This document shows, piece after piece, positions 2,837 to 53,611 of a stretch of 64,000 nucleotides of DNA. Position 1 is the first letter of the stretch. Every line of letters starts with the position of its first letter. Under the pieces are notes generated by a model that saw nothing but the letters and a program-made list of their open reading frames with translations, was not told where the DNA came from and did not search any database. A program made the translations under genes and the position numbers. This DNA comes from Patescibacteria group bacterium. Lineage in GTDB: Bacteria > Patescibacteriota > Minisyncoccia > Phycocordibacterales > Phycocordibacteraceae. The stretch spans positions 65,133 to 129,132 of the forward strand of contig JAGWVF010000002.1 in the NCBI GenBank assembly GCA_018971045.1, read 5' to 3'.

Positions 2837-3414
2837 AGCGGGAGCGCGTGGGTGAGCGAGGAGGTCGAAGAGGGCGCAAGAAGCCAGTCGGACGTGTCGA
2901 TTTTAATATCGCGGGTATCGCGCAATTCTTTATATTTCAAGATGCCGTGCGTAAGCGCATAGTCGTAGAGCGCGCGCGTAAGCCGCACGTCTTCAAGGCA
3001 ATATTCAGCCACCTTCGCTTTCTTGCCTTCGCGCCACCAGTCCTGCGCTTTCAGGCCGTCTCCCTTTTTTCCTTTTCCCAGGGTCGCCTCTGCAAGTGAT
3101 TGCAGACGGATCCGCCGGCCGAGCGCGCGCTGTACCTCGCGCAAAAGATCAAGCGATCGCAGAAAAGAAAGATCTCCCGGGTAATAGCGGTTCAAAAGCG
3201 GGATGTCGAAGGTGTCCGAGTTAAAGCCGATCAGCTGATCCGCGCGCTCGAGTATCGGCCAGAGCTTCGGCAGATCTTCTTTATAGTACGAGGAATATGA
3301 ATCAGTCTCGGAATCGTGAATGCCGACGACCGTAAGCTCCTGTTCGTTTACGTCAATGTGCCCGCGCACTGCCGAGTTCGAAATGGATTCGATGTCAAAC
3401 GTGATCGCGCGCAT
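2833..3414 (-). CDS. RNase H-fold 3'-5' exonuclease (DEDD-like)
   Basis: 193 aa. Starts MRAITFDIES (Exo I motif DxE); downstream FNSDTFDIPLL and a YCLEDV-containing segment resemble Exo II/III of DnaQ-like exonucleases. 4-nt overlap with the downstream dsbA-like gene. Confidence 0.6.
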   Translation of the reverse strand: MRAITFDIESISNSAVRGHIDVNEQELTVVGIHDSETDSYSSYYKEDLPKLWPILERADQLIGFNSDTFDIPLLNRYYPGDLSFLRSLDLLREVQRALGRRIRLQSLAEATLGKGKKGDGLKAQDWWREGKKAKVAEYCLEDVRLTRALYDYALTHGILKYKELRDTRDIKIDTSDWLLAPSSTSSLTHALPL

Positions 3415-3415
3415 A

Positions 3416-4651
3416 TCAGCCTCCGGAGCGCAGCCGCGCGGGAAGGAGAGAGGTCGGAAGCTCGGTCTCCTCGCCGCTCGCTAGAACTTTCATCCGCACC
3501 GTTTGATTGGCGACCTCGTTCGCGCCATACGCGATGAAGAGCGGTATGCCGCGCCGCACCGCATCCTTGATTTGATCGCCGAGCGAGCGTTCAGTCAGAT
3601 TGACGAACACGCGTCCGCCTTCCGCGCGGAGCGTTTCGGCGAATGCCTGCGCCGCGGGAATGTCGCTTGGAACGGGCGTACCGAGATAGAGATGCGGCGC
3701 GTTCGCGTTCGTCTGCGGCAGGAGACCGCGCGTTTCGAGGAAGTCGATAAGCGTTACGTCTCCCATTCCGAAACCGATCGCCGGCACCGGATCGCCGCCG
3801 TACACCGCCACAAGGCCGTCGTACCGGCCGCCGCCAAAGATCGCACGCGGATTCGCAGGGTTGGTATCGAACACTTCGAAAACGAGCCCGGTGTAGTAAT
3901 CGAAGCCTCGCGTGATGCCGGGATCGAAGACGGCATTTTTAACGCCGCGTTCCCTGAGTGTCGCGATGACCGACTCGATTGGTTCCGCCTCAATATGCGC
4001 GAGCGGGTCCGTGTGGGTAATGGTCTCGCGCGCCGCGGTAAACGCCTCGGGCGTCATCTTCGATCGTTTATCGAGCAAGCGGAGATAGGAACGGACATCT
4101 TCTTCCGTAAGCCCCGCTACCTTGCAGGCGGCGTTCAGAAGTTCGCGCGAATTGACGCGGATGACGAAATCGCTGTCCGTTGCGCCGAATGCCTTCAAGA
4201 GCTCGGACGCGATCGTCACGATTTCAATATCGGCTTCGCTCGATCCGATACCGACCAAATCGACGTTCAGTTGATAATGTTCGCGTAGCCTTCCTTTTTG
4301 CGGACGTTCATAGCGAAAGACATTCGGAAGCGAGAACCAGCGGAGAGGAAAAGTGAGTTCGCGCCGCTTCGCCGCGATCATGCGAGCGAGGGTCGGAGTC
4401 ATCTCGGGCCGGAGCGTTACTCTCCGATCTCCGCGGTCGATGAAAGTATACGTTTGCTCAGAGACGATCTCTTCGGAGGTCTTCGCCTCGTAGAGTTCGG
4501 CGCGTTCGAGCGGGGAGGCGTTGTACTCTTCGTATCCCCAGCGCGCGAGAGTATCACGGATCTGCGCGAAGAGCGCGATCATGCGCGCCCAGTCGCCGGG
4601 ATAAAAATCGCGCACGCCCTTGTACGGGTCAGTCGAAAAAGGTTCGGCCAT
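3416..4651 (-). CDS. hisS: histidine--tRNA ligase
   Basis: 411 aa. Class II aaRS motifs and HisRS-specific segments (RGFDYYTGLVFE, GGGRYDGL) plus a C-terminal anticodon-binding domain. Confidence 0.95.
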   Translation of the reverse strand: MAEPFSTDPYKGVRDFYPGDWARMIALFAQIRDTLARWGYEEYNASPLERAELYEAKTSEEIVSEQTYTFIDRGDRRVTLRPEMTPTLARMIAAKRRELTFPLRWFSLPNVFRYERPQKGRLREHYQLNVDLVGIGSSEADIEIVTIASELLKAFGATDSDFVIRVNSRELLNAACKVAGLTEEDVRSYLRLLDKRSKMTPEAFTAARETITHTDPLAHIEAEPIESVIATLRERGVKNAVFDPGITRGFDYYTGLVFEVFDTNPANPRAIFGGGRYDGLVAVYGGDPVPAIGFGMGDVTLIDFLETRGLLPQTNANAPHLYLGTPVPSDIPAAQAFAETLRAEGGRVFVNLTERSLGDQIKDAVRRGIPLFIAYGANEVANQTVRMKVLASGEETELPTSLLPARLRSGG

Positions 4652-4679
4652 AATATAATTTTATCACGAACGGTCGCGG

Positions 4680-5219
4680 CTAAACACCCGTTTCTTTTTC
4701 TTCCGGTATGTATTTGAGAATGAGATCGCGCATCATTTCCGGCTTTGAGATGCCAGACATAGTAAATTCCTCTTCCTCTCCGGCGGACTGCACCTTGATG
4801 GTTCCAATATTGATGATTGAGGAAAGAACGCCGCTCACATCTGACGTGACGTCTTGCACACGCGAAAGGAAGAGGCTCGATACCTCGCGCGAGAAGAAAC
4901 GGCGCTGTTTAATATGGATGATACGTTGATTCGTGAGAATCCATGCGTTGAGGAAATAACGGGTGAAGTTTCCCCACGCCACCGTCCAGATTATGAGGAG
5001 CCAGATCGTCAGAGCGTGGTGCGACTCCGATTGTCGATAATCGAGATACGATATGAAGTGTATATTCGCGGGTACCGGAGCAAACGAAAGTAATTGCGGC
5101 AACGCAAATGGGATTACCGCAAGGATCACATAAGGGAGCATCTCGCCAAGAAGGAGCAACCAATGCTTGCGGAGCAGGCGAACGACAAACTCACCCGGTT
5201 CGAGTTCGAAGCCGTTCAT
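4680..5219 (-). CDS. membrane protein with bacterial PH domain (bPH_2 / YdbS-like)
   Basis: 179 aa. Two N-terminal TM helices followed by a ~80-aa soluble domain resembling YdbS/YdbT bPH_2 proteins. Confidence 0.55.
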   Translation of the reverse strand: MNGFELEPGEFVVRLLRKHWLLLLGEMLPYVILAVIPFALPQLLSFAPVPANIHFISYLDYRQSESHHALTIWLLIIWTVAWGNFTRYFLNAWILTNQRIIHIKQRRFFSREVSSLFLSRVQDVTSDVSGVLSSIINIGTIKVQSAGEEEEFTMSGISKPEMMRDLILKYIPEEKETGV

Positions 5220-5467
5220 ATGAGCAAGTACAATCCAAGTGCGAGCGATATGCTGAGGTGGAGAATGATCGACACCGTCGTTGCAAAAAGATTATGCGCA
5301 TACTTGAGCCAATGATAGATCGCAACGAGCGTATATAGCGCCCAGAAGACGAAAACGGAGATAAATAACCACTGTTTAAGCTGATCGCCGGAGACAATGT
5401 TCAGCATATGCAGATTCTGCATCACCGCCACGGGAGGTGCGAACGGCTGTAGCGGCCGATCAATCAT
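5216..5467 (-). CDS. small hydrophobic membrane protein (hypothetical)
   Basis: 83 aa. Two predicted TM helices. 4-nt and 8-nt overlaps with the flanking same-strand genes suggest a coupled operon member. Confidence 0.45.
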   Translation of the reverse strand: MIDRPLQPFAPPVAVMQNLHMLNIVSGDQLKQWLFISVFVFWALYTLVAIYHWLKYAHNLFATTVSIILHLSISLALGLYLLI

Positions 5468-6242
5468 CGAGAAATGATACCACGATCACGCGCGGAACGC
5501 CGTACTGATCGGCGTGTATTTCTGCGGTCAGGCGCCGATCGGTAAACAACGAGCAGGCGGCCGCTGCGTGTTCGCTATCGCATTCGATCCATGCGGTACC
5601 TTCTCTCGTGAGGTGTTTTGGAAGCTCGGCGGCGATGCGGCGAATGACGGCAAGACCGTCAACCCCCGCCCGCAAAGCGATCTCGGGCTCATAGCGGGCG
5701 ACACTCGCGGGGAGCGTGCGCTCGGAGGGAATATAGGGAGGATTGGCGGCAATGAGGTCGAATGTCTCGCCGTCGAACGGCGCGAAGAGATCGCCGATGC
5801 CGATATGCGCGCGAGACGCATCCAAGGCATTCCCCGATATATTTTTTGAAATAGTTTTCTCGTGCCCGGGATCAATCTCGCCAAACGAGACATCGGCCGT
5901 CGGGAGGCGCTTAAGCGCGGCGCAGCCGATGGCGCCGGAGCCGGCGCAAAGATCTAAAAAGCGAAGGCCGCTCGAATTCTTATTAACGGCTTCTTTAAGA
6001 AGTTGGAAGGTCCACCACTCGGTCTCGGAACGGGGAATAAGCGGACGCGAGTCGAGATGTATCGTAAGGTCGAGGAACGGCTGATGCCCGATCACATAGG
6101 CGAGCGGCTCATCGGCGGCGAGCCGACCGCAATCTGATCTGAAACCATCCGTCGCTACTCCACCGTATTTTTCATCGAGTAGCCGCCGCTCGTCTTTGGT
6201 CATATGTAGAGAACGTAGCACAAAACAAAACAGCCCGCGCAA
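5460..6242 (-). CDS. prmC: release factor glutamine N5-methyltransferase PrmC/HemK
   Basis: 260 aa. SAM-binding motif DLCAGSGAIG and the catalytic NPPY motif (IAANPPYIP). Confidence 0.85.
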   Translation of the reverse strand: MRGLFCFVLRSLHMTKDERRLLDEKYGGVATDGFRSDCGRLAADEPLAYVIGHQPFLDLTIHLDSRPLIPRSETEWWTFQLLKEAVNKNSSGLRFLDLCAGSGAIGCAALKRLPTADVSFGEIDPGHEKTISKNISGNALDASRAHIGIGDLFAPFDGETFDLIAANPPYIPSERTLPASVARYEPEIALRAGVDGLAVIRRIAAELPKHLTREGTAWIECDSEHAAAACSLFTDRRLTAEIHADQYGVPRVIVVSFLDD

Positions 6243-6272
6243 AGCGCGGGCTGTTTTGCCATCAAACGATGA

Positions 6273-6608
6273 TTAGTAGCCTCCTCGGCCGTAGCCGTTC
6301 CCGCCGCCGAAGCCGCCTTCGCGGCGCGGAGGGCGATCACCCTGCGGGCGGGCAAACGAGACGGAGAGCGTACGCCCATCCATCTCCTTGCCATCCCAAC
6401 GGTCGATGGCCGCCTGAGCTTCCGCCTCGGTCGCCATCTCGACAAATCCGAAGCCGCGTGAGCGGCCCGTCATTCGATCGCTAATGATGCTCGCCGAGAC
6501 GACATTTCCGGCCTCGCTAAAGGCCTTTTTAAGATCGTCTTCCGTCGAACGATAGGGAATACCGCCTACGTAGAGCTTGTTTCCCTGAACTGCTGACTGA
6601 TTATCCAT
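6273..6608 (-). CDS. RRM-domain RNA-binding protein with Gly/Arg-rich tail
   Basis: The ORF is trimmed to the internal ATG (MDNQSAVQGNKLYVGGIPY). RNP2 LYVGGI and RNP1 RGFGFVEM motifs; C-terminal GGFGGGNGYGRGGY tail. Confidence 0.85.
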   Translation of the reverse strand: MDNQSAVQGNKLYVGGIPYRSTEDDLKKAFSEAGNVVSASIISDRMTGRSRGFGFVEMATEAEAQAAIDRWDGKEMDGRTLSVSFARPQGDRPPRREGGFGGGNGYGRGGY

Positions 6609-6768
6609 GTGTAGATCTAACCGGTTAATCTCGCTGAAACTGAACGCATGCGGCCGTCGCCGGCCAAGGCATTGCTCGAATACTCCGCGAGTAATTACAG
6701 TATGCCAGAAATGCGCGGAGTACGCAAGGCATTGTTGATAAGCGCCGCCGCATCGAAAAAGAGACACG

Positions 6769-6797
6769 TTGACTTCATTCGTCAGATTTGGTATATA
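6769..6797 (+). promoter_or_regulatory. sigma-70-like promoter (TTGACT - 17 nt - TATATA) upstream of the 6807 CDS
   Basis: TTGACT at 6769-6774, 17-nt spacer, TATATA at 6792-6797, ATG at 6807. No SD, so possibly a very short leader. Confidence 0.5.
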
Positions 6798-6806
6798 TTA
6801 GACCAC

Positions 6807-7886
6807 ATGAAGAGTGCGATAAAAACGAAGCGCAAGGAAGCCTCGAAAGCGGTCAAACCGGTCACGTTTTCTTTTGACAGTATCGCTCTCGTGAAGCGCC
6901 TGCTCGCCTCGGTTCCGCCGCGCGCTCGCGAGGTGCTCACGCGCCGATTCGGCCTCGGCGCCACGACGACTCGCGAGACCCTCGAAACGATCGGTGATCG
7001 CGCCGGCATTACGCGCGAGCGCGTTCGCCAGATCGAGGCCGCCGGACTTGATGCCGTACGCGCAAGCAAGGCGTTTAAGGAAGCGAAAGCGGCATTTGAA
7101 GAGCTCACCTCGTATGTCACGTCGCTCGGCACCCTCGTACCCGAGGAAGCGCTTTTAGCGGCGCTCGGCAAGGACGGGAAAAGCCGCAACCGTTTTCGCT
7201 TCTTTCTTATGCTCGACTCGTCTTTTTATCGCGAGCGCGAAACGAACGAATTCCTCGTACGCTGGCATGTTGATAAAGGAACCGCCAAGCTTATTCACGA
7301 TGCGCTCTCGCGCCTCTACACATCGCTCGCCGATGACGAAGTCATTCCCGAAGGAGAACTTCTGGATCGGTTCCTCGACGAGCTTAAAGAAGTCAATGAT
7401 GCCTACAAGAATGAAGAAGTCTTGAAGCGCTGGCTCTCCTTAAGTAAGCATATCGGCAGCAATCCGCTCTCGGAATGGGGTCGCACGTCCGCTCCCGGTA
7501 TCCGGATCAAGGGCATTCGCGATTACGCGTATCTTGCGGTGAAGCGCCACGGCGAACCGATGCATTTCTCGGATGTTGCAAAGACAATCGGCACGCTTTT
7601 TTCGAAGAAGGCGCATATCGCAACGACCCATAACGAGCTCATCAAGGACCCGCGTTTCGTGCTCGTCGGACGCGGACTCTATGCGCTCACCGAGTGGGGC
7701 TACAAGCCGGGCGTGGTGCGCGAAGTGATCCGCGAAGCGCTCAAACAGGAAGGTCCGATGAAAAAGGATGACATCATCAAGCACGTGAAGCGCGCTCGTT
7801 TCGTGAAGGACAACACGATCTTCGTGAATCTGAACGATTCGCGGTATTTCAAACGCCTTAAGGACGGCCGGTATATCTCCGTCTAA
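6807..7886 (+). CDS. DNA-binding protein with sigma-70 region-4-like HTH (hypothetical regulator)
   Basis: About 360 aa from the ATG at 6807 (the ORF track begins at 6648). The segment ETLETIGDRAGITRERVRQIEAAGL is a sigma region-4-type HTH. No sigma region 2 is present. Confidence 0.55.
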   Translation: MKSAIKTKRKEASKAVKPVTFSFDSIALVKRLLASVPPRAREVLTRRFGLGATTTRETLETIGDRAGITRERVRQIEAAGLDAVRASKAFKEAKAAFEELTSYVTSLGTLVPEEALLAALGKDGKSRNRFRFFLMLDSSFYRERETNEFLVRWHVDKGTAKLIHDALSRLYTSLADDEVIPEGELLDRFLDELKEVNDAYKNEEVLKRWLSLSKHIGSNPLSEWGRTSAPGIRIKGIRDYAYLAVKRHGEPMHFSDVAKTIGTLFSKKAHIATTHNELIKDPRFVLVGRGLYALTEWGYKPGVVREVIREALKQEGPMKKDDIIKHVKRARFVKDNTIFVNLNDSRYFKRLKDGRYISV

Positions 7887-7902
7887 TGGTTATTCGTATG
7901 CA

Positions 7903-7937
7903 CAGAAGCGGCGTCCGCGAGGCGCCGCTTCTGTTTG
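7903..7937 (+). terminator. intrinsic terminator
   Basis: Perfect 11-bp stem CAGAAGCGGCG / CGCCGCTTCTG with an 8-nt loop, followed by TTTGG. Confidence 0.6.
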
Positions 7938-7955
7938 GTATACTGATACGGTACA

Positions 7956-9317
7956 ATGTCGCTCCTCCATAGCGTTGAATCGGCACAGAAAAAAATAACC
8001 TCGAAAACCGGATTACGGTTCGAGCCATGGCCGCTCCTTCTTGTCGCTCTATCGGTTCTCCTCATGGCGTTTGTCTTTATGCCGAGCGTCGCAATGCTCT
8101 CGTTCTCGATGGCGCTCTTTCTCGCGCCGATATGGCTCCCCCTCTTGCTTGTCGGCGGCGCGATCGATCTCTGGTACATCTATAAACGCTCGGAATTCAT
8201 CGCGAGTAAACAATATGTTCTCCTTGAGATAAAGCCTCCGCGCAATCTCGCCAAAACGCCTCTCGCTATGGAGACATTCCTTTCGACGCTGCACCTGACC
8301 GGAGGCGAGTCGACCTGGTGGGCGCGTTTGAATGGAGGAACCCGCCCTTTCTGGTCGCTTGAGATCGCTTCGTTTGAAGGTCAGGTGCATTTCTTTATCT
8401 GGGGGCGCGCTGATTTCCGCAGGCTTATCGAATCGCAGCTGTATGCCCAGTATCCAGGCGTGCATATCGCCGAATCGCTTGACTACACTCGCCTCATCTC
8501 AGCAGCGCCCGAGGAATGGAGTCTGTGGGGGTGCGATTTTATGCATATGGCCGCCGATCCGCTGCCCATCAGGACGTACATTGAATACGGACTTGATAAA
8601 GTACAAAAAGAGCCGGAACAGACCGACCCGCTCGCCAATCTTATCGAGTTCATGGGCTCCATCGGAAAAGGGGAGTATCTCTGGCTCCAATTCATCGTGC
8701 GCGCTCATAAAGGAGAGAAGTATCATAAACACAATGAGAAAGGCGATCCCTTCACGTGGAAAGATTTGGCGAACGAGCTGGTTCAGGATATTCGGAAAGC
8801 GACTCGTGATCCTTATGTCGATCCGGCTACCGGCGAAGAACGGCCAGGATTTCCGAATCCTACCAAAGGTCAGGTAGAAAAAATCGCCGCGATCGAGCGC
8901 AACGTCTCAAAACTCGCGTTCGATGTCGGCGGACGCGGCGTGTATCTCTCTCGGCCGGAACATTTCCACAGCGCGACGATCCCTCAAATGATCTCTCTCT
9001 TTAAGCCGTTTAACTCGGAAGGGTGGAACGGGATCAAAGCATCGGCGTGGCTCATGCGTTTCGACGATTATCCGTGGGAAGTCGGCGTTTCGAAAAAGAA
9101 AGATCATTATCGCCGCGAGCTGGTTGACGCGTTCCGCCGCAGGCAGTTTTTCCATGACCCTTTTCATGAGGGAGGATTGCATGCGGATGACGCCATGGTT
9201 ATGAGCACCGAAGAGCTCGCGACCATCTTCCACATTCCCTCGCGCTCGGTCGAGACGCCAGGTCTCGGACGCGTGCAATCAGCGACCGGCGAAGCGCCGC
9301 CAGACCTGCCCGTCTAG
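7956..9317 (+). CDS. membrane protein: 2 N-terminal TM helices plus a domain paralogous to the N-terminal domain of the 49073-51847 ATPase
   Basis: 453 aa. TM helices LLLVALSVLLMAFVF and LFLAPIWLPLLLVGGAI. The soluble part aligns block by block with residues ~150-520 of the 924-aa ATPase (LLEIKPP~LYEIALPEP; FWSLEIASFEGQVHFFIWG~YYALELAVPAHSPELQFYAAIP; IESQLYAQYPGVHI~FEKQLLAVFPGARL; DPLANLIEF~DPLNALINAF; STEELATIFHIPSRSVETPGLGRV~SLRELTTIYHFPPSGMESSPHLRQ). Confidence 0.7.
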   Translation: MSLLHSVESAQKKITSKTGLRFEPWPLLLVALSVLLMAFVFMPSVAMLSFSMALFLAPIWLPLLLVGGAIDLWYIYKRSEFIASKQYVLLEIKPPRNLAKTPLAMETFLSTLHLTGGESTWWARLNGGTRPFWSLEIASFEGQVHFFIWGRADFRRLIESQLYAQYPGVHIAESLDYTRLISAAPEEWSLWGCDFMHMAADPLPIRTYIEYGLDKVQKEPEQTDPLANLIEFMGSIGKGEYLWLQFIVRAHKGEKYHKHNEKGDPFTWKDLANELVQDIRKATRDPYVDPATGEERPGFPNPTKGQVEKIAAIERNVSKLAFDVGGRGVYLSRPEHFHSATIPQMISLFKPFNSEGWNGIKASAWLMRFDDYPWEVGVSKKKDHYRRELVDAFRRRQFFHDPFHEGGLHADDAMVMSTEELATIFHIPSRSVETPGLGRVQSATGEAPPDLPV

Positions 9318-9321
9318 AGTC

Positions 9322-10293
9322 ATGCCGTTTCCAAGATTTCCTGCTCTCCAGAAGCGGTATCGGTGGCGCATGGCGGCATCAATCGCCGGAATGCTTCTGG
9401 TCAGCTACGCGCTCGTATTCGCTCCGCCGTCTTCCTTCCCGTCAGGGACAGTTCTTCTCGTTCAGCGCGGAGAAGGCGTTCCCGACATCGTGAAGAAATT
9501 TGCTGACGCGCATATCGTCGCCCACCCGTCGGTGCTACGCTTTATTCTGCGCGTCATGGACGCGGGGAATACGGTACAAGCCGGCGCTTACCGTTTCCCC
9601 CGCCCAGAGAGCGTGCTTTCGGTTGCGTATCGCTTGAGTCATGGTGAGTACGGCATTCCCTCCGTCCGCATCACGGTGACGGAAGGCGCAACGGTCCGCG
9701 AATTAGCCGATCAGGTCGCCGCCGCGTTTCCGGAAATATCGGCGGAGGACATGCGCGCGGCGGGCATGAAATACGAAGGATATCTCTTTCCGGACACCTA
9801 CACCTTTCCGCCGGGAACCGACGCGGACTCGGTGATTGCCGCCATGCGCGGCAATTTCGAGACGAAAATCGCTCCTTTGAAGGAGAGCATCGCGGCATCG
9901 GGACACTCGCTCTCTGCTGTTATCACGATGGCATCGCTTCTTGAGAAGGAGGCGCGCACCCTTGAGAGCAAGAAGATGGTCGCGGGCATCTTGTGGAATC
10001 GTCTCGCGCTCGGTATGCCGCTTCAGGTCGACGCAGTTTTCGGGTATATTTATAATCGGGAGACGTACTCGCCCTCGTACGCCGACCTCAAAGTAGATTC
10101 TCCCTATAACACCTACCTTCATAAAGGCCTCCCGCCCGGACCCATCAATAATCCGGGACTCGAGAGCATCGAAGCGGCGTTGAGTCCCACGAAAACTCCC
10201 TATCTCTACTACCTCACGGGGAATGATAATCAAATGCATTACGCCTCAACCTACGCCGGCCACCTTGCCAACCAGCGAAGCTATTTGCGATAG
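9322..10293 (+). CDS. mltG: endolytic murein transglycosylase MltG (YceG family)
   Basis: 323 aa. N-terminal TM anchor and the YceG signature region (GYLFPDTYTF, LLEKEA, GLPPGPINNPG). Confidence 0.9.
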   Translation: MPFPRFPALQKRYRWRMAASIAGMLLVSYALVFAPPSSFPSGTVLLVQRGEGVPDIVKKFADAHIVAHPSVLRFILRVMDAGNTVQAGAYRFPRPESVLSVAYRLSHGEYGIPSVRITVTEGATVRELADQVAAAFPEISAEDMRAAGMKYEGYLFPDTYTFPPGTDADSVIAAMRGNFETKIAPLKESIAASGHSLSAVITMASLLEKEARTLESKKMVAGILWNRLALGMPLQVDAVFGYIYNRETYSPSYADLKVDSPYNTYLHKGLPPGPINNPGLESIEAALSPTKTPYLYYLTGNDNQMHYASTYAGHLANQRSYLR

Positions 10294-10359
10294 TCTTAAG
10301 GGGCGGAATACGAATAAGACCATAGCTAAAGAATCGATTTTTTGCTAAATTTTATTCAT

Positions 10360-12210
10360 ATGGAAAAGCACCCCCTACATCTCAAAAACCCAGAACTTCA
10401 GACTTCTCCTGAGGTCAATCGAGCTGTTGTTCAAGAAGAACGCCACACTGGCGAAAAAATGCCGAACGATCCTGGCGAGCGTATCGAAGCCTACATGGAT
10501 CGGCTTGAGAACATTTTCTTAAATCCGGACGAACGGAAGCGAGAGCGCAATCTCGAAATGTTCCGGGACAAGATTTATGACGCGCTCATCATAAAAAAAG
10601 AAAATTTTCCTGACAGCTATTTCGAACTCCAAAAGCGCATTGCGCGAGAGCGCGGCCAAGCCGTGGAAGAAATTCCGGAAAACGTCCGCGAGCAGATGAT
10701 GGACGTAGCCATCGATGATCAGAGGGCCTCGCTCGACGCATGGATCAACTACCTCGCCTCCGATGACGCCGTATATCCGGCGTGGTTCAAATACTACGCC
10801 TGGAATCAGATCACCAAGCTCTCCCAGTTCGACAAGGAGCGGGGCGAGTTCAAGAAGCGTACCGCTTCGACGGTCGCACCCTTTCCCGATATCTATCGCG
10901 AGCCATTAGCGCAGATCGCCGATCTCTACGAACGCGTCAAAGACGACAATAAAGACTCGGAAGCCCGTCGCGAATTCGACAAGAAGTTCCCCGTGCTCTA
11001 TGCCGAGCTCATCCAGAAATCACTCGCGGCACAGATAGAGAACAAGGAGAACGTCTCCGGGCAATGGGTGAAGTATGAGCAAGGAGACAGCGAAGCGGCG
11101 GAGAAACTTTATCAATCGCTCGAGGGCAAGGGCACCGGCTGGTGCACGGCCGGACATTCTACGGCGCAGGCGCAAATTAATAGCGGAGACTTTTATGTCT
11201 ACTACACCAATGACTCAAACGGCGAGCCGACCCAACCTCGTCTTGCCATTCGTATGAATGGCGACAACCGAATCGGCGAAGTGAGAGGCATCCTCCCTCA
11301 TCAAGGCGTTGAGCCGATCATGCAGGAAGTGCTTGATACCAAACTTCAAGAATTCGGCGGCGAAGCGGACGCATACCGCAAGAAAAGCGCGGATATGAAA
11401 ATGCTCACTGCGCTTGATCAGAAGAAAGAACAGGATCAACCCTTTGATAAGGACGATCTTGTATTCCTCTACGAAATCAATTCATCCATTGAAGGCTTCG
11501 GCTACCAGACCGATCCGCGCATCGCCGAACTCCGTCAAGAACGAAACGTCGAGGAAGACATGCTCACGATCTTTGAATGCACGAAAGACGAGATCGCTTA
11601 CGTCCCAAGCCAGATCACGAAAGACACTAAAGCCTATGTCGGACAGCTTGAGCCGGGCATCTTCCAGAAACTGCCCGAAGGTCTTGAGCATATGTACACT
11701 TCTTTCCCTGAAAAGAAAATCCGTAGGGATAGCATCGAGGTCGGCGGCAAGTCCGCGGAACAGCTCATATCCGAACTAAAAGCGGCAGGCATCCAGATTA
11801 CAAACAATGCAATGAGAATGCTTCTGAACAAGAAAGCATTCATTCCGACAAAAGATCTCGAGGATATGACCCTTATTCGCCTCGCTGTCGACGACCTCCT
11901 CGACTTCGAGCAGGATCCGTCCACCGATCGAATATTCGAGCGAGCGCAAGAGCTCGGTCTGGAAATCTGCCCGCCGGATACCGGCCCGGCTTGGCGCCTT
12001 AAGTATCGCAACCAGCCTTCGGGAAGATTGTTCATCGGCATGAAGCCAATCACTTGCTCCGACGGCCGCTCGCTCGGCCGCTCGTTCGTGTTCGGCCTGA
12101 CCCGGACCGACGACGGCGGCTTGTGGCTGTCCAACGATTGGGCGGATCCCGACGGCGAGTGGTTTCCGTACGACACGTTCGCGTTCCGTCTCCGCAAGCC
12201 TGAAGCTTAA
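10360..12210 (+). CDS. large hypothetical protein (616 aa), locally lower GC
   Basis: Long ORF with no recognisable domain. Preceded by an AT-rich segment. An alternative TTG start lies at 10342. GC by eye is about 50% against the ~60% window average. Confidence 0.6.
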   Translation: MEKHPLHLKNPELQTSPEVNRAVVQEERHTGEKMPNDPGERIEAYMDRLENIFLNPDERKRERNLEMFRDKIYDALIIKKENFPDSYFELQKRIARERGQAVEEIPENVREQMMDVAIDDQRASLDAWINYLASDDAVYPAWFKYYAWNQITKLSQFDKERGEFKKRTASTVAPFPDIYREPLAQIADLYERVKDDNKDSEARREFDKKFPVLYAELIQKSLAAQIENKENVSGQWVKYEQGDSEAAEKLYQSLEGKGTGWCTAGHSTAQAQINSGDFYVYYTNDSNGEPTQPRLAIRMNGDNRIGEVRGILPHQGVEPIMQEVLDTKLQEFGGEADAYRKKSADMKMLTALDQKKEQDQPFDKDDLVFLYEINSSIEGFGYQTDPRIAELRQERNVEEDMLTIFECTKDEIAYVPSQITKDTKAYVGQLEPGIFQKLPEGLEHMYTSFPEKKIRRDSIEVGGKSAEQLISELKAAGIQITNNAMRMLLNKKAFIPTKDLEDMTLIRLAVDDLLDFEQDPSTDRIFERAQELGLEICPPDTGPAWRLKYRNQPSGRLFIGMKPITCSDGRSLGRSFVFGLTRTDDGGLWLSNDWADPDGEWFPYDTFAFRLRKPEA

Positions 12211-49072: not shown

Positions 49073-51847
49073 ATGGAATCTTCGCCGAAGCTCTCGACGC
49101 CTGAAGAAGAACTCTCGTATTTGCGCGAACAGGTGCTCCGCAAGGAGCGCGAGATAGCCCTTCAAACGGGGATCGAGAACACTAGCCCGGAACGCGAGCG
49201 GATCATCAGGGAACAGGTGCGCGCGCACCAAACGGCGCCTGCCGAAGCGTTCTCGCCCGAATATCATCTGAATGAAGCGACCCAAGCGGCGGCGGCGGAC
49301 GCGATTCTCGCCGAACTTGAACTTGGAAGTGGCGAGGAAGCGATCAAGAGCCTACAGAAAATCCTCGAGGAAAAGGGAATCAGGAACGCTCTCGCCGTCG
49401 CCGAGAAGATGCGCGATCCTCACGCAACCGACGACTTCCATCGCTATTTGGTGCGTTATGTCGCCGCCGGCCTGCCGATGCATGAAGGAGACGAGAAGGC
49501 GCCGCGCTTCCGGTCGCTTCATATGACGCTCTACGAGATCGCGCTTCCCGAGCCGAAGGCGGTCGAGCAGGGAGGACGGCAGAAGACTCTCAAAGAACTT
49601 ATTTCGGGCATGGAGCAGTTGTATGCCGGCCTCCTCTCGATCGAGGACGCTCTGCCGGGCGAACCGACGTACTATGCGCTCGAGCTCGCGGTGCCGGCAC
49701 ACAGTCCCGAATTGCAATTTTACGCCGCCATCCCGAATACGAAGAAGAATCTTTTTGAAAAACAGCTCCTCGCCGTCTTTCCCGGTGCGCGTCTGGTGCC
49801 TCAGCCGTACGATTACAACGTATTCGTTTCGAACGGTACGACGCTCGCCTCGGTCGCCGCGCTCGCAGAAAATCCGGCGCTCCCGTTGAAGGATTACGCT
49901 GATTTCGACCACGATCCTTTGAACGCGCTTATCAATGCTTTCGCTAAAATCGAGAACACCGGCGAGGGCGCCGCGCTCCAGATCATCATCGAGCCGCGCG
50001 CCGATCGGCACATGAAGCATTATCAAAAGATCCTGCAGGCGCTTCGCAAAGGCGAGAGACATGATGTGGCGTTCAAGACGCCCGAGACGATCATTGGTGA
50101 AATCGGGCGCGATTTCTCCCGCATCCTATTCTCGAATAAACCGAAGGACGTACAGAAGGCTAAAGAGGCCGAGACGCGCCAGATCGAAGCGAATAAGACC
50201 GCTATCGAGCAAGTCGAGAAGAAGATCGCGATGCCGATCGTCGGAGCCACGATCCGAGTCGTCGCGTCCTCGCACGACGCGCATACGGCGGCGCGGATCC
50301 TCGACGAGATCGAGTCGACCTTTCATCAGTTCGGAAATACGCAAGGGAATCATATCGAGTTCGCGCGCGCTACGGATCGAAGTGCGCAAGCGGTATTTGA
50401 CGCATTTTCCTTCCGTCTTCCGTCATCCGACGCGCTCCCGCTCTCCCTGCGCGAACTGACGACGATCTACCATTTTCCTCCATCGGGAATGGAGTCATCG
50501 CCGCATCTCCGGCAGGAGCGCTTCACGCACGCGCCGGCGCCGATCTCTCTGCCGCAGACAGGCGTACTGCTTGGCATTAATAATTATCGAGGGAAAGAGA
50601 CGCGTGTCTGCCTCGATCCTGAAGATCGCCTCCGTCATCTCTACGTCATCGGCCAAACCGGCACCGGGAAGACCGGACTCTTGAAGTCGATGATTCAACA
50701 AGACATTATGCGCGGGGAGGGATGCTGTTTTATTGATCCGCACGGCACCGACATTCTCGACATCCTCGCGATGGTGCCGCCTGCGCGTTACAAGGACGTT
50801 ATCTATTTCGACCCCGCCGATCTCTCGAGGCCGTTTGCGCTCAACTTCCTCGAGTATGACCTCTCGCGTCCGGAGCAGAAGACCTTCATCGTCAACGAAC
50901 TCCTCATGATCTTTCGCCGTCTCTACGGCGACGTTCCCGAGAGCATGGGGCCGGCGTTCGAGCAATACTTCCGCAACGCGACGCAACTCGTGATGGAGGA
51001 CCCGGCGAGCGGTTCCACCATCCTCGATATCGCGCGCGTTCTCTCAAATAGTGAATTTCGGCGGATGAAGCTCGCGAAAAGTATGAACCCGATCGTCAAC
51101 CAATTCTGGAACGAGATCGCGACTAAAGCTGGTGGCGAAGCATCGCTTGAAAATGTGGTGCCCCATATCACCAACAAGTTCGATGATTTCACCGCAAACG
51201 ACTTCATCCGGCCGATCGTCGGACAACAGCACTCCTCTTTTAATTTCCGCGAGGTGATGGATTCGAAGAAGATCCTACTCGTTAATCTCTCGAAGGGCCG
51301 CTTGGGCGAGAAGAACGCCAATCTTCTCGGACTCATCATCGTCGGTAAGCTCTTTATGGCGGCGCTTTCGCGCGCCGACTCGCCTCGCGCTCATTTTCCG
51401 CCTTTTTATCTCTATATTGACGAATTCCACAATGTAACGACCGATTCGATCCCCGGCATCCTCTCGGAAGCGCGCAAATATAAGCTTGCGCTCTCCGTGG
51501 CACATCAGTTCCTTAATCAGGTCGAGGAAGCGACGCGCCAAGCCGTGTTCGGCAACGTCGGCAATATGGCGATATTCCGCATCGGCGAAGAAGACGCGGA
51601 ATTTTTCGAAAAGCAGTTCGCGCCCGTCTTTACCGCGCTTGATTTCGTGAATATCGAGAATCGCAATGCGTACGTGAAGATTCTCGCGAAAGGCGTCCCG
51701 CAAAAGCCGTTTGATATGCGAACGCCGGATACGCCCGCCGGAAATCCCGAGCAGATCGACGATCTTATTCAACTCTCATCGCTCACTTACGGCCGCGATC
51801 GTGCTACAGTGGAGACTATGATCCGCGAACGGTATCTTACGCACTGA
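49073..51847 (+). CDS. P-loop NTPase of the TraD/TrwB/VirD4 coupling-protein or HerA/FtsK-like clade, with large N-terminal domain of unknown function
   Basis: 924 aa. Walker A GQTGTGKTG, Walker B YLYIDEFHN, sensor-like SVAHQ. A ~400-aa N-terminal non-ATPase domain is paralogous to the 7956-9317 protein. No TM helices. Confidence 0.75.
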   Translation: MESSPKLSTPEEELSYLREQVLRKEREIALQTGIENTSPERERIIREQVRAHQTAPAEAFSPEYHLNEATQAAAADAILAELELGSGEEAIKSLQKILEEKGIRNALAVAEKMRDPHATDDFHRYLVRYVAAGLPMHEGDEKAPRFRSLHMTLYEIALPEPKAVEQGGRQKTLKELISGMEQLYAGLLSIEDALPGEPTYYALELAVPAHSPELQFYAAIPNTKKNLFEKQLLAVFPGARLVPQPYDYNVFVSNGTTLASVAALAENPALPLKDYADFDHDPLNALINAFAKIENTGEGAALQIIIEPRADRHMKHYQKILQALRKGERHDVAFKTPETIIGEIGRDFSRILFSNKPKDVQKAKEAETRQIEANKTAIEQVEKKIAMPIVGATIRVVASSHDAHTAARILDEIESTFHQFGNTQGNHIEFARATDRSAQAVFDAFSFRLPSSDALPLSLRELTTIYHFPPSGMESSPHLRQERFTHAPAPISLPQTGVLLGINNYRGKETRVCLDPEDRLRHLYVIGQTGTGKTGLLKSMIQQDIMRGEGCCFIDPHGTDILDILAMVPPARYKDVIYFDPADLSRPFALNFLEYDLSRPEQKTFIVNELLMIFRRLYGDVPESMGPAFEQYFRNATQLVMEDPASGSTILDIARVLSNSEFRRMKLAKSMNPIVNQFWNEIATKAGGEASLENVVPHITNKFDDFTANDFIRPIVGQQHSSFNFREVMDSKKILLVNLSKGRLGEKNANLLGLIIVGKLFMAALSRADSPRAHFPPFYLYIDEFHNVTTDSIPGILSEARKYKLALSVAHQFLNQVEEATRQAVFGNVGNMAIFRIGEEDAEFFEKQFAPVFTALDFVNIENRNAYVKILAKGVPQKPFDMRTPDTPAGNPEQIDDLIQLSSLTYGRDRATVETMIRERYLTH

Positions 51848-51850
51848 CGT

Positions 51851-53611
51851 ATGGCATCTCCCGAACAACTTGGACGCCGGACAAATGGTCCGGAAAAAAT
51901 CGAAACCACGTTACCCGCATCACCGTCCGATGATCTGACAGGGACAGATCGCGACGATTTTATTGCGGCGCTTAAAAAATTACGATCGCGCGCCCTCGAA
52001 GACGGAGATTACCAGAAAATGTTTGCAATTGAAAACAGGCTCTGGGGAAAGGGTGGAATTGATGAAAAAGCGCTTTTGGGGAAGGAAGGGATTGACGAAG
52101 GAAGCGCCACGAGCCAGCCGCACGAGGAAGTCAAAAAAGATCCAGGTGAATTTCCAGCTTCAGTGGAAGCCGACGTGGATCCTTTTGCGGAAGATGAAGA
52201 TATGAGCGGGACGCCCGACGGGACGAGAGAATGGAGTGCGCGATGGAGAGGGAAACTGCGCAGTATCGTCGAGGGTTCAAAGGAACTGGTCGGCGGGTTG
52301 AGCGAGCGCGGCGCGCGCCTCTCCGAATATCTGAAGAATCGTTCAGTTGAAATAGACGCGAAAGCGGAAATGAGTAAATTGGAAAGAGGCTTTCGATGGA
52401 TGGGCGAGCGGTACGACAAGCTGGGATGGAAGTCGAAGGTCGCGATCGGCGCGAGTCTTGGCATCGGGGCAGGCGCCGCCTCCGCCATTTCTCTTCCCGT
52501 AGCGCTTGCGCTGACCGGAGGCATCGCGGCACAGCGGGTGTTTGGATTGGCAAGCGCGTTCACGAAGCTCGAGAAGCGGTATCAAGACAAGGAATCCGGC
52601 GGGTTTTTCGCGAAGAAAGAGAGGGCGATGGGGAAGGCGATGGTTCACGCGGCCTTCATGACGGGTGTGATGCTCGCCGTGGCCGAGGGGGCGAAAGAGG
52701 TTACCGAATACGCGAGAGAGCATCAGTTGACCGAGAGATTGCTGGAGTGGCTGAGGCATTCTCACTCCCTCGATCACTCCGCGCCGCCAACAGCGGCGCA
52801 TCCCGCGCCCGTTCTCGAAATGAATGCGCCCGCGAGCGGCAACCTCATGCCCGAGGTGTCGGTCGAGGCTTCTTCGAGAGGCTACGAAGGAATGACCAGG
52901 CACTTGTGGGAGCGATTGCAGGAACAGCATCTCGACCCGAGCAAGTTTCCTGAAGGGAGCGATATCCGCAGGCTTTTGGAGGCCGACGCGCATTCGATCG
53001 GAAAGGTCGCGCATCAGATCGCGAGCGATCCGTCGCACGGCTTCTTCAAGCCTGACGGTACGAGCGTCGTCGTCCCCGAGTCGGCGCATATGACCATCGG
53101 CGCTGACGGGCAACTGCATATGAGTGATTCGGCCCTTCCCGGAGGCTTTGTGCACGCGCCCGAGAACGCGGCCGTAACCGAAGGGTCTCAGCATCATTAT
53201 GAATGGGAGAATGAGCCGGTGAGAACGACCGTTGAACCAGTCCCAAGCGATACTCCCGCGTACGACGTTCCGCAAAATACGACGCCGGAGTCCGCTCCGT
53301 TCCAGACGCCCGACTCGCTTATCGAAACGCCTACACCCGACGCGCATATTTATAGCGGCTTAGACGGAGGCCGGCCGATCGCATTCGGCGGGACGCCAGA
53401 GAAGCTTCACGCGGCGATCACGGAGTATCTGAAGCAAAATCCGGGGAAGGGCATTGTCGGCAACGATGATGCGGGAGCGCATCGCGTTCTTTGGCATCTG
53501 GTTGACGACAAACTCACTTCGAGCGCCCCCTTGCGGGAAAAAATCTTCGGCCTCTTTTCGAGAACGCTCCCGCCGTTCGGCCCCGATGATTTCAGAAATA
53601 TTATCACCTAG
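51851..53611 (+). CDS. hypothetical membrane protein (586 aa), translationally coupled to the ATPase
   Basis: Starts 3 nt after the ATPase stop. Acidic N-terminal region, two central TM helices (AIGASLGIGAGAASAISLPVALALTGGIAA and AMVHAAFMTGVMLAVAEGA), His/Pro-rich C-terminal half. Confidence 0.6.
   Translation: MASPEQLGRRTNGPEKIETTLPASPSDDLTGTDRDDFIAALKKLRSRALEDGDYQKMFAIENRLWGKGGIDEKALLGKEGIDEGSATSQPHEEVKKDPGEFPASVEADVDPFAEDEDMSGTPDGTREWSARWRGKLRSIVEGSKELVGGLSERGARLSEYLKNRSVEIDAKAEMSKLERGFRWMGERYDKLGWKSKVAIGASLGIGAGAASAISLPVALALTGGIAAQRVFGLASAFTKLEKRYQDKESGGFFAKKERAMGKAMVHAAFMTGVMLAVAEGAKEVTEYAREHQLTERLLEWLRHSHSLDHSAPPTAAHPAPVLEMNAPASGNLMPEVSVEASSRGYEGMTRHLWERLQEQHLDPSKFPEGSDIRRLLEADAHSIGKVAHQIASDPSHGFFKPDGTSVVVPESAHMTIGADGQLHMSDSALPGGFVHAPENAAVTEGSQHHYEWENEPVRTTVEPVPSDTPAYDVPQNTTPESAPFQTPDSLIETPTPDAHIYSGLDGGRPIAFGGTPEKLHAAITEYLKQNPGKGIVGNDDAGAHRVLWHLVDDKLTSSAPLREKIFGLFSRTLPPFGPDDFRNIIT

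What the first reader, a model, noticed from the sequence alone, without database searches (positions are those of the whole stretch)
7956..9317. Membrane-anchored paralogue of the ATPase N-domain, 40 kb away: split anchor/ATPase architecture
The 453-aa protein has two N-terminal TM helices and then a ~380-aa domain. That domain aligns block-for-block with the N-domain of the 49073 ATPase (LLEIKPP~LYEIALPEP; FWSLEIAS-FEGQVHFFIWG~YYALELAVPAHSPELQFYAAIP; STEELATIFHIPSRSVETPGLGRV~SLRELTTIYHFPPSGMESSPHLRQ). It is not a recent duplicate, because identity is low. Two genes therefore carry the same domain family, one fused to a membrane anchor and one to a motor ATPase. This suggests a hetero-oligomeric complex in which the anchor tethers the soluble ATPase. 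Canonical VirD4/TraD proteins carry their own TM helices. This would be an unusual split arrangement.
Basis: seen in the sequence. Interest (0 to 1): 0.7.

Follow-up and report, generated by a model that had tools for sequence, protein, structure and literature searches.

The report
Motor-less membrane paralogue of coupling ATPase
A candidate-phyla (Patescibacteria) genome carries a membrane-anchored protein that copies the front half of its type IV secretion 'coupling' ATPase but has no motor, while the ATPase has the motor but no anchor, so the two may work as a split pair.

Summary
ORF 7956-9317 (453 aa) has two N-terminal TM helices and a ~370-aa domain homologous to residues 148-497 of the TM-less ATPase at 49073-51847 (BLASTP E 1e-9; hhalign 98.7%, E 3e-16). 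Pfam already catalogues this domain as DUF8128 (PF26449); no paper in the searched library mentions it.

New here:
- The ATPase belongs to the Patescibacterial DUF8128 + VirD4-like coupling-protein family. 63 of 92 sampled members are unsplit: N-terminal TM, DUF8128, then motor.
- The 453-aa protein matches the N-terminal half of those unsplit proteins better (E 2e-31) than its own genome's ATPase.
- It represents a monophyletic, motor-less family in at least 578 species. It lies in a conserved housekeeping block directly upstream of mltG and is never within 10 kb of the ATPase.

So one paralogue lacks the motor and the other lacks the anchor, which fits an anchor/motor hetero-oligomer. No interaction was tested. 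Co-occurrence is shown only in three Kaiserbacteria-type assemblies. Split anchors have precedents (TraI/TraJ, VirB3/VirB4, TrsD).

The parts
7956..9317 (+). Stand-alone TM-DUF8128 protein (453 aa): a motor-less paralogue of the N-terminal half of Patescibacterial coupling proteins.
   Evidence: ORF confirmed. More than 1279 homologues at about 70% identity, all carrying PF26449. 1925 50%-identity cluster representatives match at E<1e-3. At least 578 species genomes encode it. AF2 model pLDDT 91.7.
8025..8174 (+). Two-helix membrane hairpin (residues about 24-73), with basic residues on both flanks, so the DUF8128 domain is predicted to be cytoplasmic.
   Evidence: Hydropathy peaks of 2.60 and 2.17. 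Model helices 24-41, 43-55 and 57-84. 117 of 129 full-length family representatives have an N-terminal hydrophobic segment.
8205..9314 (+). DUF8128 domain (residues 84-453) with the VirB4 N-terminal-domain fold. It ends at the conserved ...HxP...AP.NLP linker that precedes the motor in full-length relatives.
9322..10293 (+). MltG/YceG endolytic transglycosylase, 4 nt downstream: the probable operon partner of the anchor gene.
   Evidence: TIGR00247 E 1e-54. YceG E 5e-71. Adjacent within 300 bp in 52 of 80 species loci and present in 77 of 80; the cluster is seen in 79 of 80.
6648..7886 (+). Sigma70-region-4 + HARE-HTH protein, the conserved upstream neighbour. A hairpin followed by a T-rich tract lies between it and the anchor gene.
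   Evidence: Pfam. Directly upstream in 69 of 80 loci and in 76 of 80 by clustering. Inverted repeat near 7903-7933 seen in the sequence; terminator-like site at 7919-7931.
49073..51847 (+). TM-less DUF8128 + VirD4/TraD-like ATPase (924 aa), a member of the Patescibacterial coupling-protein (T4CP) family.
   Evidence: ORF. Homologues at 75-80% identity carry PF26449 + PF01935 + PF12696. NCBIfam TraD/VirD4 hits. Its P-loop profile hits 92 of 92 CPR DUF8128-T4CPs, median 412 bits.
49073..49513 (+). Soluble N-terminal extension (residues 1-147) occupying the position of the TM helix seen in most sampled family members.
   Evidence: No Pfam hit and no hydrophobic segment. The same kind of extension is present in the closest non-Kaiserbacteria relatives P0477, P0494 and P0479, whereas the next closest relatives mostly start with a TM helix.
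49514..50563 (+). DUF8128 domain of the ATPase (residues 148-497).
   Evidence: hhalign. A3 HMM E 4e-18.
50564..51844 (+). P-loop motor domain. Walker A is GQTGTGKTG (residues 527-535, nt 50651-50677) and Walker B is FYLYIDEF (residues 778-785, nt 51404-51427); both are invariant in the family.
   Evidence: Invariant columns. Pfam DUF87, TrwB_AAD_bind and TraG-D_C. hhalign to TrwB E 2e-6 against TrwK E 0.014.
51851..53611 (+). Membrane protein of unknown family (586 aa), 3 nt downstream of the ATPase: a rival or additional membrane partner.
   Evidence: Hydrophobic segments at 203-221 (1.83) and 263-281 (1.45). 34% identical syntenic homologue. Adjacent in 42 of 55 ATPase loci with enough downstream sequence. 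No Pfam or NCBIfam hit. Not evident next to the more distant TM-less relative P0477.

Best explanation
Shown:
- ORF 7956-9317 encodes a cytoplasmic-membrane protein with a two-TM hairpin and a cytoplasmic DUF8128 domain that has the fold of the VirB4 N-terminal domain.
- It belongs to a monophyletic, motor-less family. That family is homologous to the N-terminal half (TM + DUF8128) of the Patescibacterial type IV coupling-protein family, whose commonest sampled architecture is TM - DUF8128 - VirD4-like P-loop motor.
- ORF 49073-51847 is this lineage's member of that coupling-protein family. It keeps DUF8128 and an intact motor but has a 147-aa soluble extension where the TM helix normally sits.

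Inferred:
- The pair may be a product of duplication followed by complementary loss, with one copy keeping the anchor and the other the motor.
- They would function together. The anchor's DUF8128 would pair with the ATPase's DUF8128, as VirB4 N-domains pair with each other and dock on the VirB3 hairpin in R388.
- This would hold the hexameric motor at the membrane. The role would be chromosomal and housekeeping-like, not plasmid conjugation, possibly coordinated with the co-transcribed MltG.
For: - Homology of the two domains.
- Shared Pfam DUF8128.
- 63 of 92 CPR DUF8128-T4CPs have an N-terminal TM, then DUF8128, then Walker A near residue 420.
- The 453-aa protein matches those unsplit proteins at E 1.8e-31 over residues 54-453, against 8.6e-8 to its own genome's ATPase.
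- The window ATPase is a family member: its P-loop profile hits 92 of 92 and its N-domain profile 90 of 92.
- The ATPase and its closest relatives lack any TM.
- Both genes lie on the same contig in three assemblies (window).
- Both are under strong purifying selection: mean column identity 71% and 82%.
- The family is tied to type IV secretion elsewhere. In CPR locus L172 a DUF8128-T4CP sits next to PrgI/VirB3 and VirB4 genes. In Bacillus phage G, gp156 sits next to VirB6-like and VirB4-like genes.
Against: - No physical or co-evolutionary test of the interaction was possible.
- The two genes are never within 10 kb of each other: 0 of 80 and 0 of 80 loci.
- In a rough neighbour-joining tree of DUF8128 the two lineages are not sisters. 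The anchor is therefore not a recent split of this particular ATPase.
- Co-occurrence is shown only among close relatives (Kaiserbacteria-type).
- It is unknown whether these genomes also hold a TM-bearing coupling protein or a VirB4.
- The anchor's conserved partners by gene order are MltG and a sigma70_r4/HARE-HTH protein inside a general housekeeping synteny block.
- The ATPase has its own translationally coupled membrane protein.
- In Southlakia, a different class, the coupling-protein homologue was reported as non-essential (PMC12102498).
Confidence: 0.45

Rival explanations
1. The 453-aa protein is an independent membrane scaffold. It would be an EccE-like or TrsD-like structural subunit that does not bind the 924-aa ATPase. 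It could instead serve the canonical VirB4 secretion system elsewhere in the genome, or an envelope process linked to its operon partner MltG.
For: - Class-wide adjacency to mltG (52-79 of 80 loci) and to a sigma70_r4/HARE-HTH gene (69-76 of 80), and never to the ATPase.
- ATPase-less proteins related to the VirB4 N-terminus (TrsD) are common T4SS parts in Patescibacteria.
- The two DUF8128 lineages are not sisters.
Against: - By sequence the domain is detectably related only to coupling-protein N-domains. No similarity to TrwK/VirB4 or to pSK41 TrsD was found.
- The canonical CPR cluster already has its own VirB3 and TrsD.
- The mltG neighbourhood is a general housekeeping synteny block (ychF-leuS-...-alaS), so adjacency may not indicate function.
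- The ATPase's lack of a TM is then left unexplained.
Confidence: 0.3
2. The ATPase is tethered by the membrane protein encoded 3 nt downstream (51851-53611). This would resemble pIP501, where TraI is proposed to anchor TraJ. The 453-aa paralogue would then be irrelevant to anchoring.
For: - Translational coupling.
- The homologue is adjacent in 42 of 55 ATPase loci with enough downstream sequence, and in two long contigs.
- It has hydrophobic segments.
- Precedent: a separately encoded anchor proposed for a TM-less coupling protein.
Against: - The protein evolves fast (34% identity where the ATPase is about 77%) and varies from 586 to 818 aa.
- It has no recognisable domain.
- No comparable gene is evident next to the more distant TM-less relative P0477, where the downstream gene is 238 aa after a 170-nt gap.
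- It does not explain why a motor-less DUF8128 paralogue is conserved in at least 578 species.
Confidence: 0.2
3. The similarity is a chance or compositional artefact, or the 453-aa ORF is a decaying fragment of a former coupling-protein gene.
For: Only 24% pairwise identity, with many gaps.
Against: - hhalign 98.7%, E 3e-16, over the whole domain.
- Both proteins are in one Pfam family.
- The conserved core residues are shared.
- The family has 1925 cluster representatives at E<1e-3 and members in at least 578 species, with 71% mean column identity among close members and a high-confidence fold.
Confidence: 0.02

Closest known systems
Patescibacterial T4CP homologues (VirD4-like; catalogued in PMC12102498; Pfam architecture PF26449 + PF10412/PF02534/PF12696)
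   Same: - The 924-aa ATPase is a member by profile score: its P-loop profile hits 92 of 92, median 412 bits.
- It lies far from any virB4, as do 5,565 of the 5,713 reported homologues.
- The 453-aa protein is homologous to the TM + DUF8128 half of these proteins at E 2e-31.
   Different: - The window ATPase has a soluble extension in place of the N-terminal TM helix.
- The 453-aa protein has no motor at all.
- The paper neither describes the N-domain nor lists a motor-less paralogue, in the text and the truncated tables that were read.
VirB4 (TrwK of R388) with its membrane partner VirB3
   Same: - The domain sits directly N-terminal of a VirB4/VirD4-superfamily P-loop domain.
- A two-TM hairpin is associated with it.
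- VirB4 N-domains mediate dimerisation and VirB3 docking.
   Different: - No sequence similarity to TrwK was detected.
- The motor scores as TraD/VirD4/TrwB and not as VirB4: TIGR03743 at 8e-12 against TIGR00929 at 0.06, and TrwB at 2e-6 against TrwK at 0.014.
- Here the hairpin is fused to a motor-less N-domain.
pIP501 TraI / TraJ (a separately encoded anchor proposed for a TM-less coupling protein)
   Same: A coupling ATPase without TM helices, plus a separately encoded two-TM protein proposed to tether it.
   Different: - TraI is described as a small two-TM protein encoded in the same tra cluster, with no reported domain shared with TraJ.
- Here the candidate anchor is a 453-aa paralogue of the ATPase's own N-domain, encoded 40 kb away.
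TrsD (pGO1/pSK41 type) and its Patescibacterial homologues
   Same: A separate, ATPase-less protein related to the N-terminal part of a VirB4-family ATPase.
   Different: - TrsD is 227 aa and lies immediately upstream of virB4, in the order VirB3-TrsD-VirB4.
- hhalign between the DUF8128 profile and pSK41 TrsD finds nothing.
- The 453-aa gene lies in a housekeeping block next to mltG.
EccE of mycobacterial type VII secretion (ESX)
   Same: - Two TM helices, a linker helix, and a cytoplasmic beta-rich domain with no catalytic site.
- It is part of a membrane complex built around an FtsK-like hexameric ATPase.
   Different: - No sequence-family match.
- The structural score is far weaker than to VirB4.
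- In the ESX-3 structure EccE3 contacts EccD and not the ATPase EccC.
Bacillus phage G gp156 and relatives (phrog_5156)
   Same: - DUF8128 + T4CP-like motor: E 7e-27 by tblastn, hhalign 97.6%, precomputed PF26449.
- Encoded beside VirB6-like and VirB4-like genes.
   Different: - It is phage-encoded.
- It has an internal hydrophobic segment inside DUF8128 and no N-terminal TM.
- tblastn found no motor-less paralogue in the phage collection.

Membership tests
Pfam PF26449 (DUF8128) | Significant match to the family model. | tested here: met
   Precomputed PF26449 hits on the 100%-identical database copies P0001 and P0121 and on all 240 listed homologues; the family name is given. The local Pfam copy did not return this model, so the match rests on the precomputed annotation plus hhalign between the two families.
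VirD4/TraD-type coupling protein (T4CP), for the 924-aa ATPase | VirD4/TrwB-type P-loop nucleotide-binding domain with Walker A and B motifs. | tested here: met
   Invariant GQTGTGKTG and YIDEF motifs. NCBIfam TraD 8e-12 and 1e-8, VirD4-like CD1115 3e-8 spanning residues 517-843; all are below the equivalog cut-offs. Pfam TrwB_AAD_bind scores 20.4 against a cut-off of 20.5, TraG-D_C 20.5 against 22, DUF87 28 against 23.2. hhalign to TrwB E 2e-6. Relatives carry PF10412, PF02534 and PF12696.
VirD4/TraD-type coupling protein (T4CP), for the 924-aa ATPase | N-terminal transmembrane helices. | tested here: not met
   No hydrophobic window of 1.6 or more; the maximum is 1.57, inside the motor core.
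VirD4/TraD-type coupling protein (T4CP), for the 924-aa ATPase | Genetic linkage to a relaxase or a mating-pair-formation cluster. | tested here: not met
   No VirB4, VirB6 or relaxase among the large ORFs of the 64-kb window; the neighbours are DedA, uvrB, uvrA and the like. Family members elsewhere are linked to such clusters.
VirB4 | N-terminal domain of the VirB4 fold, directly N-terminal of the P-loop domain. | tested here: met
   [not shown]
VirB4 | VirB4-type C-terminal ATPase by sequence (TIGR00929, CagE_TrbE_VirB, P-loop_TraG). | tested here: not met
   TIGR00929 E 0.062. No PF03135 or PF19044 hit. hhalign to TrwK reaches 3% probability and covers only the Walker A region.
VirB3 | A small protein (about 100 aa) with a two-TM hairpin, encoded next to virB4. 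| tested here: not met
   The hairpin is present. However, the protein is 453 aa, has no VirB3/PrgI Pfam hit, and is not next to a virB4.
TrsD/TraD family (pGO1/pSK41) | Sequence homology to TrsD, and a position immediately upstream of virB4. | tested here: not met
   hhalign of the DUF8128 profile against pSK41 TrsD gives E 0.41; this is a weak test against a single sequence. The gene context differs.
EccE (type VII secretion) | Membership of the EccE sequence family, within an ESX locus containing EccB, EccC and EccD. | tested here: not met
   [not shown]

The most novel reading that the evidence does not exclude
Paceibacteria would run a chromosomal, conjugation-independent membrane translocation motor. 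In it a TM-less coupling-type hexamer is docked, N-domain to N-domain, onto a ring of motor-less membrane-anchored paralogues. This would resemble the VirB4 'hexamer of dimers' with the outer ATPase ring replaced by pure anchors. The machine would be co-expressed with MltG to cross the wall, for example to take up DNA or other macromolecules from hosts. As a corollary, CPR coupling proteins that retain a VirB4-type N-domain would be a surviving intermediate between VirB4 and classical VirD4.
Probability: 0.15. Interest if true: 0.8.

Novelty: new variant of a known kind. Interest (0 to 1): 0.55.

Why it matters
Coupling-protein homologues occur in 2,918 of 3,035 Patescibacteria genomes. Almost all lie far from virB4, and their role is an open question (PMC12102498).

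- If DUF8128 is a VirB4-type N-domain, these proteins have a concrete structural template.
- If Paceibacteria split the protein into an anchor-only and a motor-only paralogue, that yields a directly testable assembly model.
- The architecture would also bear on how VirD4-type coupling proteins arose from VirB4-like ancestors.
- A widespread 'hypothetical protein' family, present in at least 578 species, would gain a function.

Tried and rejected
- The local Pfam, NCBIfam, PADLOC and PHROGs scans of the 453-aa protein returned nothing useful. PF26449 is not returned by the local Pfam copy.
- Sequence search of solved structures with either family profile gave only Walker-A-level hits to TrwB and DotL for the ATPase, and nothing for the anchor.
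- The first AF2 model, built from 39 close homologues, was poor (pLDDT 65). It was redone with 126 diverse sequences.
- The afdb50 fold library was not available.
- hhalign of the DUF8128 profile against single sequences of TrwK, pSK41 TrsD and phage G gp155 gave no signal.
- Gene-neighbourhood linkage of the two genes was searched in 160 loci and not found.
- IMG/VR scans for both families found nothing.
- Supplementary Table S3 of PMC12102498 is truncated as stored and did not reach the Kaiserbacteria genomes of interest.
- The listing of cluster members gave no taxonomy for the coupling-protein relatives.
- A defence-system reading was rejected. The PADLOC mad8 and HerA hits cover only the P-loop domain.
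- A 'recent duplicate' reading was rejected because the two lineages are not sisters.
Full report
**1. The observation**

Both ORFs are real: 7956-9317 (+, 453 aa) and 49073-51847 (+, 924 aa). Hydropathy shows two strong hydrophobic segments in the short protein, at residues 27-45 and 52-70. Basic residues lie on both flanks, so the N-terminus and the large C-terminal domain are predicted to be cytoplasmic. The ATPase has no segment reaching the TM threshold; its maximum of 1.57 lies inside the motor core.

- BLASTP gives 24% identity over 363 columns, E 1e-9.
- Profile-profile comparison gives 91.6% probability with close homologues.
- With a profile of 126 diverse homologues it gives 98.7%, E 2.9e-16, over 319 columns.
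- Six of the seven positions invariant across the stand-alone family are identical in the ATPase domain, against 23% identity overall.
- No third copy exists in the window.

The shared domain is already catalogued. All listed homologues of both proteins, including 100%-identical database copies, carry the precomputed hit PF26449, named DUF8128. No paper in the searched library mentions DUF8128.

**2. What the domain is**

An AlphaFold2 model built on 126 diverse sequences is confident (pLDDT 91.7, pTM 0.88).
- The poorer first model gave the same ranking.
- In Foldseek, all 8 hits at E<=1e-3 are TrwK chains.

The hit lists contain no TrwB, FtsK, HerA or other P-loop proteins. The match must therefore be to the VirB4 N-terminal domain and not to its ATPase domain. 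This agrees with DUF8128 sitting directly in front of the P-loop domain in the 924-aa paralogue.

In the R388 structure the VirB4 N-domain (residues 15-400) provides the whole VirB4central-VirB4outside dimer interface. It is also wrapped by the two-TM protein VirB3 (PMC9259494).

At the sequence level nothing links DUF8128 to TrwK or to pSK41 TrsD. The relationship is seen only at the level of fold.

**3. What the ATPase is**

The motor has invariant Walker A and B motifs. It scores as TraD/VirD4/TrwB and not as VirB4.

A PHROG hit (phrog_5156, E 3e-63 over residues 210-919) led to Bacillus phage G gp156. This protein is DUF8128 plus a T4CP-like motor. It is encoded next to a TrbL/VirB6-like protein, a small hydrophobic protein and a VirB4-like ATPase.

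Searching with gp156 returned 92 Patescibacterial proteins of 725-1142 aa. Their architecture is PF26449 plus TrwB_AAD_bind, T4SS-DNA_transf and TraG-D_C. Source names include Berkel-, Falkow-, Gottesman- and Saccharibacteria.
- The window ATPase's motor profile hits all 92, with a median of 412 bits.
- Its N-domain profile hits 90 of 92.
- The window ATPase is therefore a member of this family.
- This is evidently the family counted as 'T4CP homologues' in 2,918 of 3,035 Patescibacteria genomes. Only 148 of those 5,713 homologues lie near virB4, and their authors say exaptation cannot be excluded (PMC12102498).
- One member, in locus L172, does sit beside a PrgI/VirB3 and VirB4 cluster near dnaN.

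**4. The key comparison**

Of the 92 family members, 63 have an N-terminal hydrophobic helix within the first 70 residues. Directly after it come the first DUF8128 strand motif (...LFLIKIPKE...) and a Walker A near residue 420. The commonest architecture in the sample is thus unsplit: TM, DUF8128, motor.
- The window ATPase and its nearest non-Kaiserbacteria relatives (P0477, P0494, P0479; Walker A near residue 520) instead begin with a soluble, charged extension.
- The 453-aa protein matches the N-terminal half of the unsplit proteins at E 1.8e-31, covering residues 54-453 including TM2. Its match to its own genome's ATPase is only E 8.6e-8.
- In a rough neighbour-joining tree of the domain, the stand-alone family is monophyletic (31 of 31) and so is the Kaiserbacteria ATPase group. 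The two are not sisters; their common ancestor includes the unsplit coupling proteins.
- The stand-alone protein ends exactly at the conserved linker (...HxP...AP.NLP) that precedes the motor in full-length relatives.

**5. Distribution and context**

The stand-alone family is large.
- 1925 cluster representatives at 50% identity match at E<1e-3, and 703 at E<1e-30.
- The best 150 are all fragments or about 400-500 aa, and most have an N-terminal hydrophobic segment.
- At least 578 species-representative genomes encode it. The best 80 are overwhelmingly Paceibacteria-type labels (Kaiser-, Nomura-, Zambryski-, Taylor-, Campbell- and Lloydbacteria) plus generic MAG labels such as 'uncultured Candidatus Saccharibacteria', at 70% down to 33% identity.

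Across those 80 loci the gene sits in a conserved same-strand housekeeping block: ychF - DUF5671 - leuS - sigma70_r4/HARE-HTH - TM-DUF8128 - mltG - ... - alaS.
- The sigma-like gene lies directly upstream in 69 of 80 loci.
- mltG lies directly downstream in 52 of 80 loci and is present in 77-79 of 80.
- In the window mltG starts 4 nt after the stop codon.
- A hairpin separates the gene from the sigma-like ORF.

No type IV secretion gene and no ATPase of this family lies within 10 kb in any of these loci.

The reverse holds in 80 ATPase loci at 63-80% identity.
- DedA is the usual upstream neighbour.
- A fast-evolving membrane protein follows directly in 42 of the 55 loci with enough downstream sequence.
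- The anchor is never nearby.

Both genes lie on the same contig in the window and in two other assemblies, 28 kb and 42 kb apart, with the gene order differing.

**6. Mechanism**

Shown:
- The homology of the two domains.
- The fold of DUF8128.
- The membership of the ATPase in the CPR coupling-protein family.
- The complementary presence of anchor and motor in the two paralogues.
- Strong conservation of both.

Inferred:
- The motor-less anchor pairs through its VirB4-type N-domain with the N-domain of the TM-less motor and holds it at the membrane.
- The fold's known behaviour in R388 makes this plausible, as does the logic of duplication with complementary loss.

Several points count against it or leave it open.
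- The genes are unlinked.
- The two lineages are not sisters.
- Deep co-occurrence is unmeasured.
- A translationally coupled membrane protein follows the ATPase in Kaiserbacteria. It is not evident beside the more distant relative P0477.
- The conserved link to mltG could point to a different role.

I put the pairing model at about 0.45. An independent scaffold role gets about 0.3, and anchoring by the downstream protein about 0.2.

**7. Comparison with known systems and novelty**

Separately encoded anchors or N-domain fragments have precedents.
- pIP501 TraI is proposed to anchor the TM-less coupling protein TraJ.
- VirB3 docks VirB4.
- TrsD is a separate protein related to the VirB4 N-terminus.
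- EccE has the same two-TM plus cytoplasmic-domain layout beside an FtsK-like motor.

Three things do not appear in the literature searched:
- the assignment of DUF8128 to the VirB4 N-domain fold;
- the finding that CPR coupling proteins carry such a domain between TM helix and motor;
- the existence of a widespread, monophyletic, motor-less membrane paralogue as a core gene of Paceibacteria.

I class this as a new variant of a known kind, with interest about 0.55.

Noticed in passing
L168 (Bacillus phage G, NC_023719.1 85048-99063): 2725-8289: The jumbo phage G carries a compact type IV secretion-like module. gp153 is TrbL/VirB6-like with many TM segments. gp154 is a 125-aa protein with a hydrophobic pair. 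gp155 is VirB4-like (P-loop_TraG 1.6e-15). gp156 is DUF8128 + T4CP-like motor, with an internal hydrophobic segment at residues 182-207. Two other large IMG/VR contigs (L170, L171) hold gp156 relatives.
   Followed up: partly
L132: 493-1929 and 1933-3354: In one metagenomic contig the ATPase orthologue is interrupted by a single in-frame stop exactly between the DUF8128 part and the P-loop part. This could be a natural split, a pseudogene or a sequencing error.
   Followed up: no
window 6648-7886 (+); also L072:2542-3606 and 76 of 80 related loci: A protein combining sigma-70 region 4 with a HARE-HTH domain (as in RNA polymerase delta) is conserved directly upstream of the TM-DUF8128 gene across Paceibacteria. 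It is not the primary sigma factor, which is at window 31-1296.
   Followed up: partly
L056:5440-8268; L166:1-1855: Leucyl-tRNA synthetases of these Paceibacteria carry a NUDIX domain inserted after the editing domain (residues about 385-514 in L056).
   Followed up: no
window 10342-12210 (+): A 622-aa ORF (TTG start) with no Pfam or NCBIfam hit lies between mltG and the next conserved genes. A homologue was found in only 1 of 80 related loci, so it looks like a lineage-specific insertion into the conserved block.
   Followed up: no
[not shown]
   Followed up: partly
window 51851-53611 (+); L002:12759-15215: The membrane protein translationally coupled to the ATPase has no recognisable family. 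It varies from 586 to 818 aa and is only 34% identical between genomes whose ATPases are about 77% identical.
   Followed up: partly
window 7903-7933 (+): An inverted repeat, CAGAAGCGGCG...CGCCGCTTCTG, followed by TTTGG lies between the sigma-like ORF and the TM-DUF8128 start. It looks like an intrinsic terminator and suggests the anchor-mltG pair is a separate transcription unit.
   Followed up: partly
L172: 2963-7872 (-) and 8001-10187 (+): In a 996-kb CPR contig a TM-less 728-aa DUF8128-T4CP is divergently adjacent to a T4SS cluster near dnaN: a PrgI/VirB3-containing protein, a VirB4 split into two ORFs, and an M23 peptidase.
   Followed up: no
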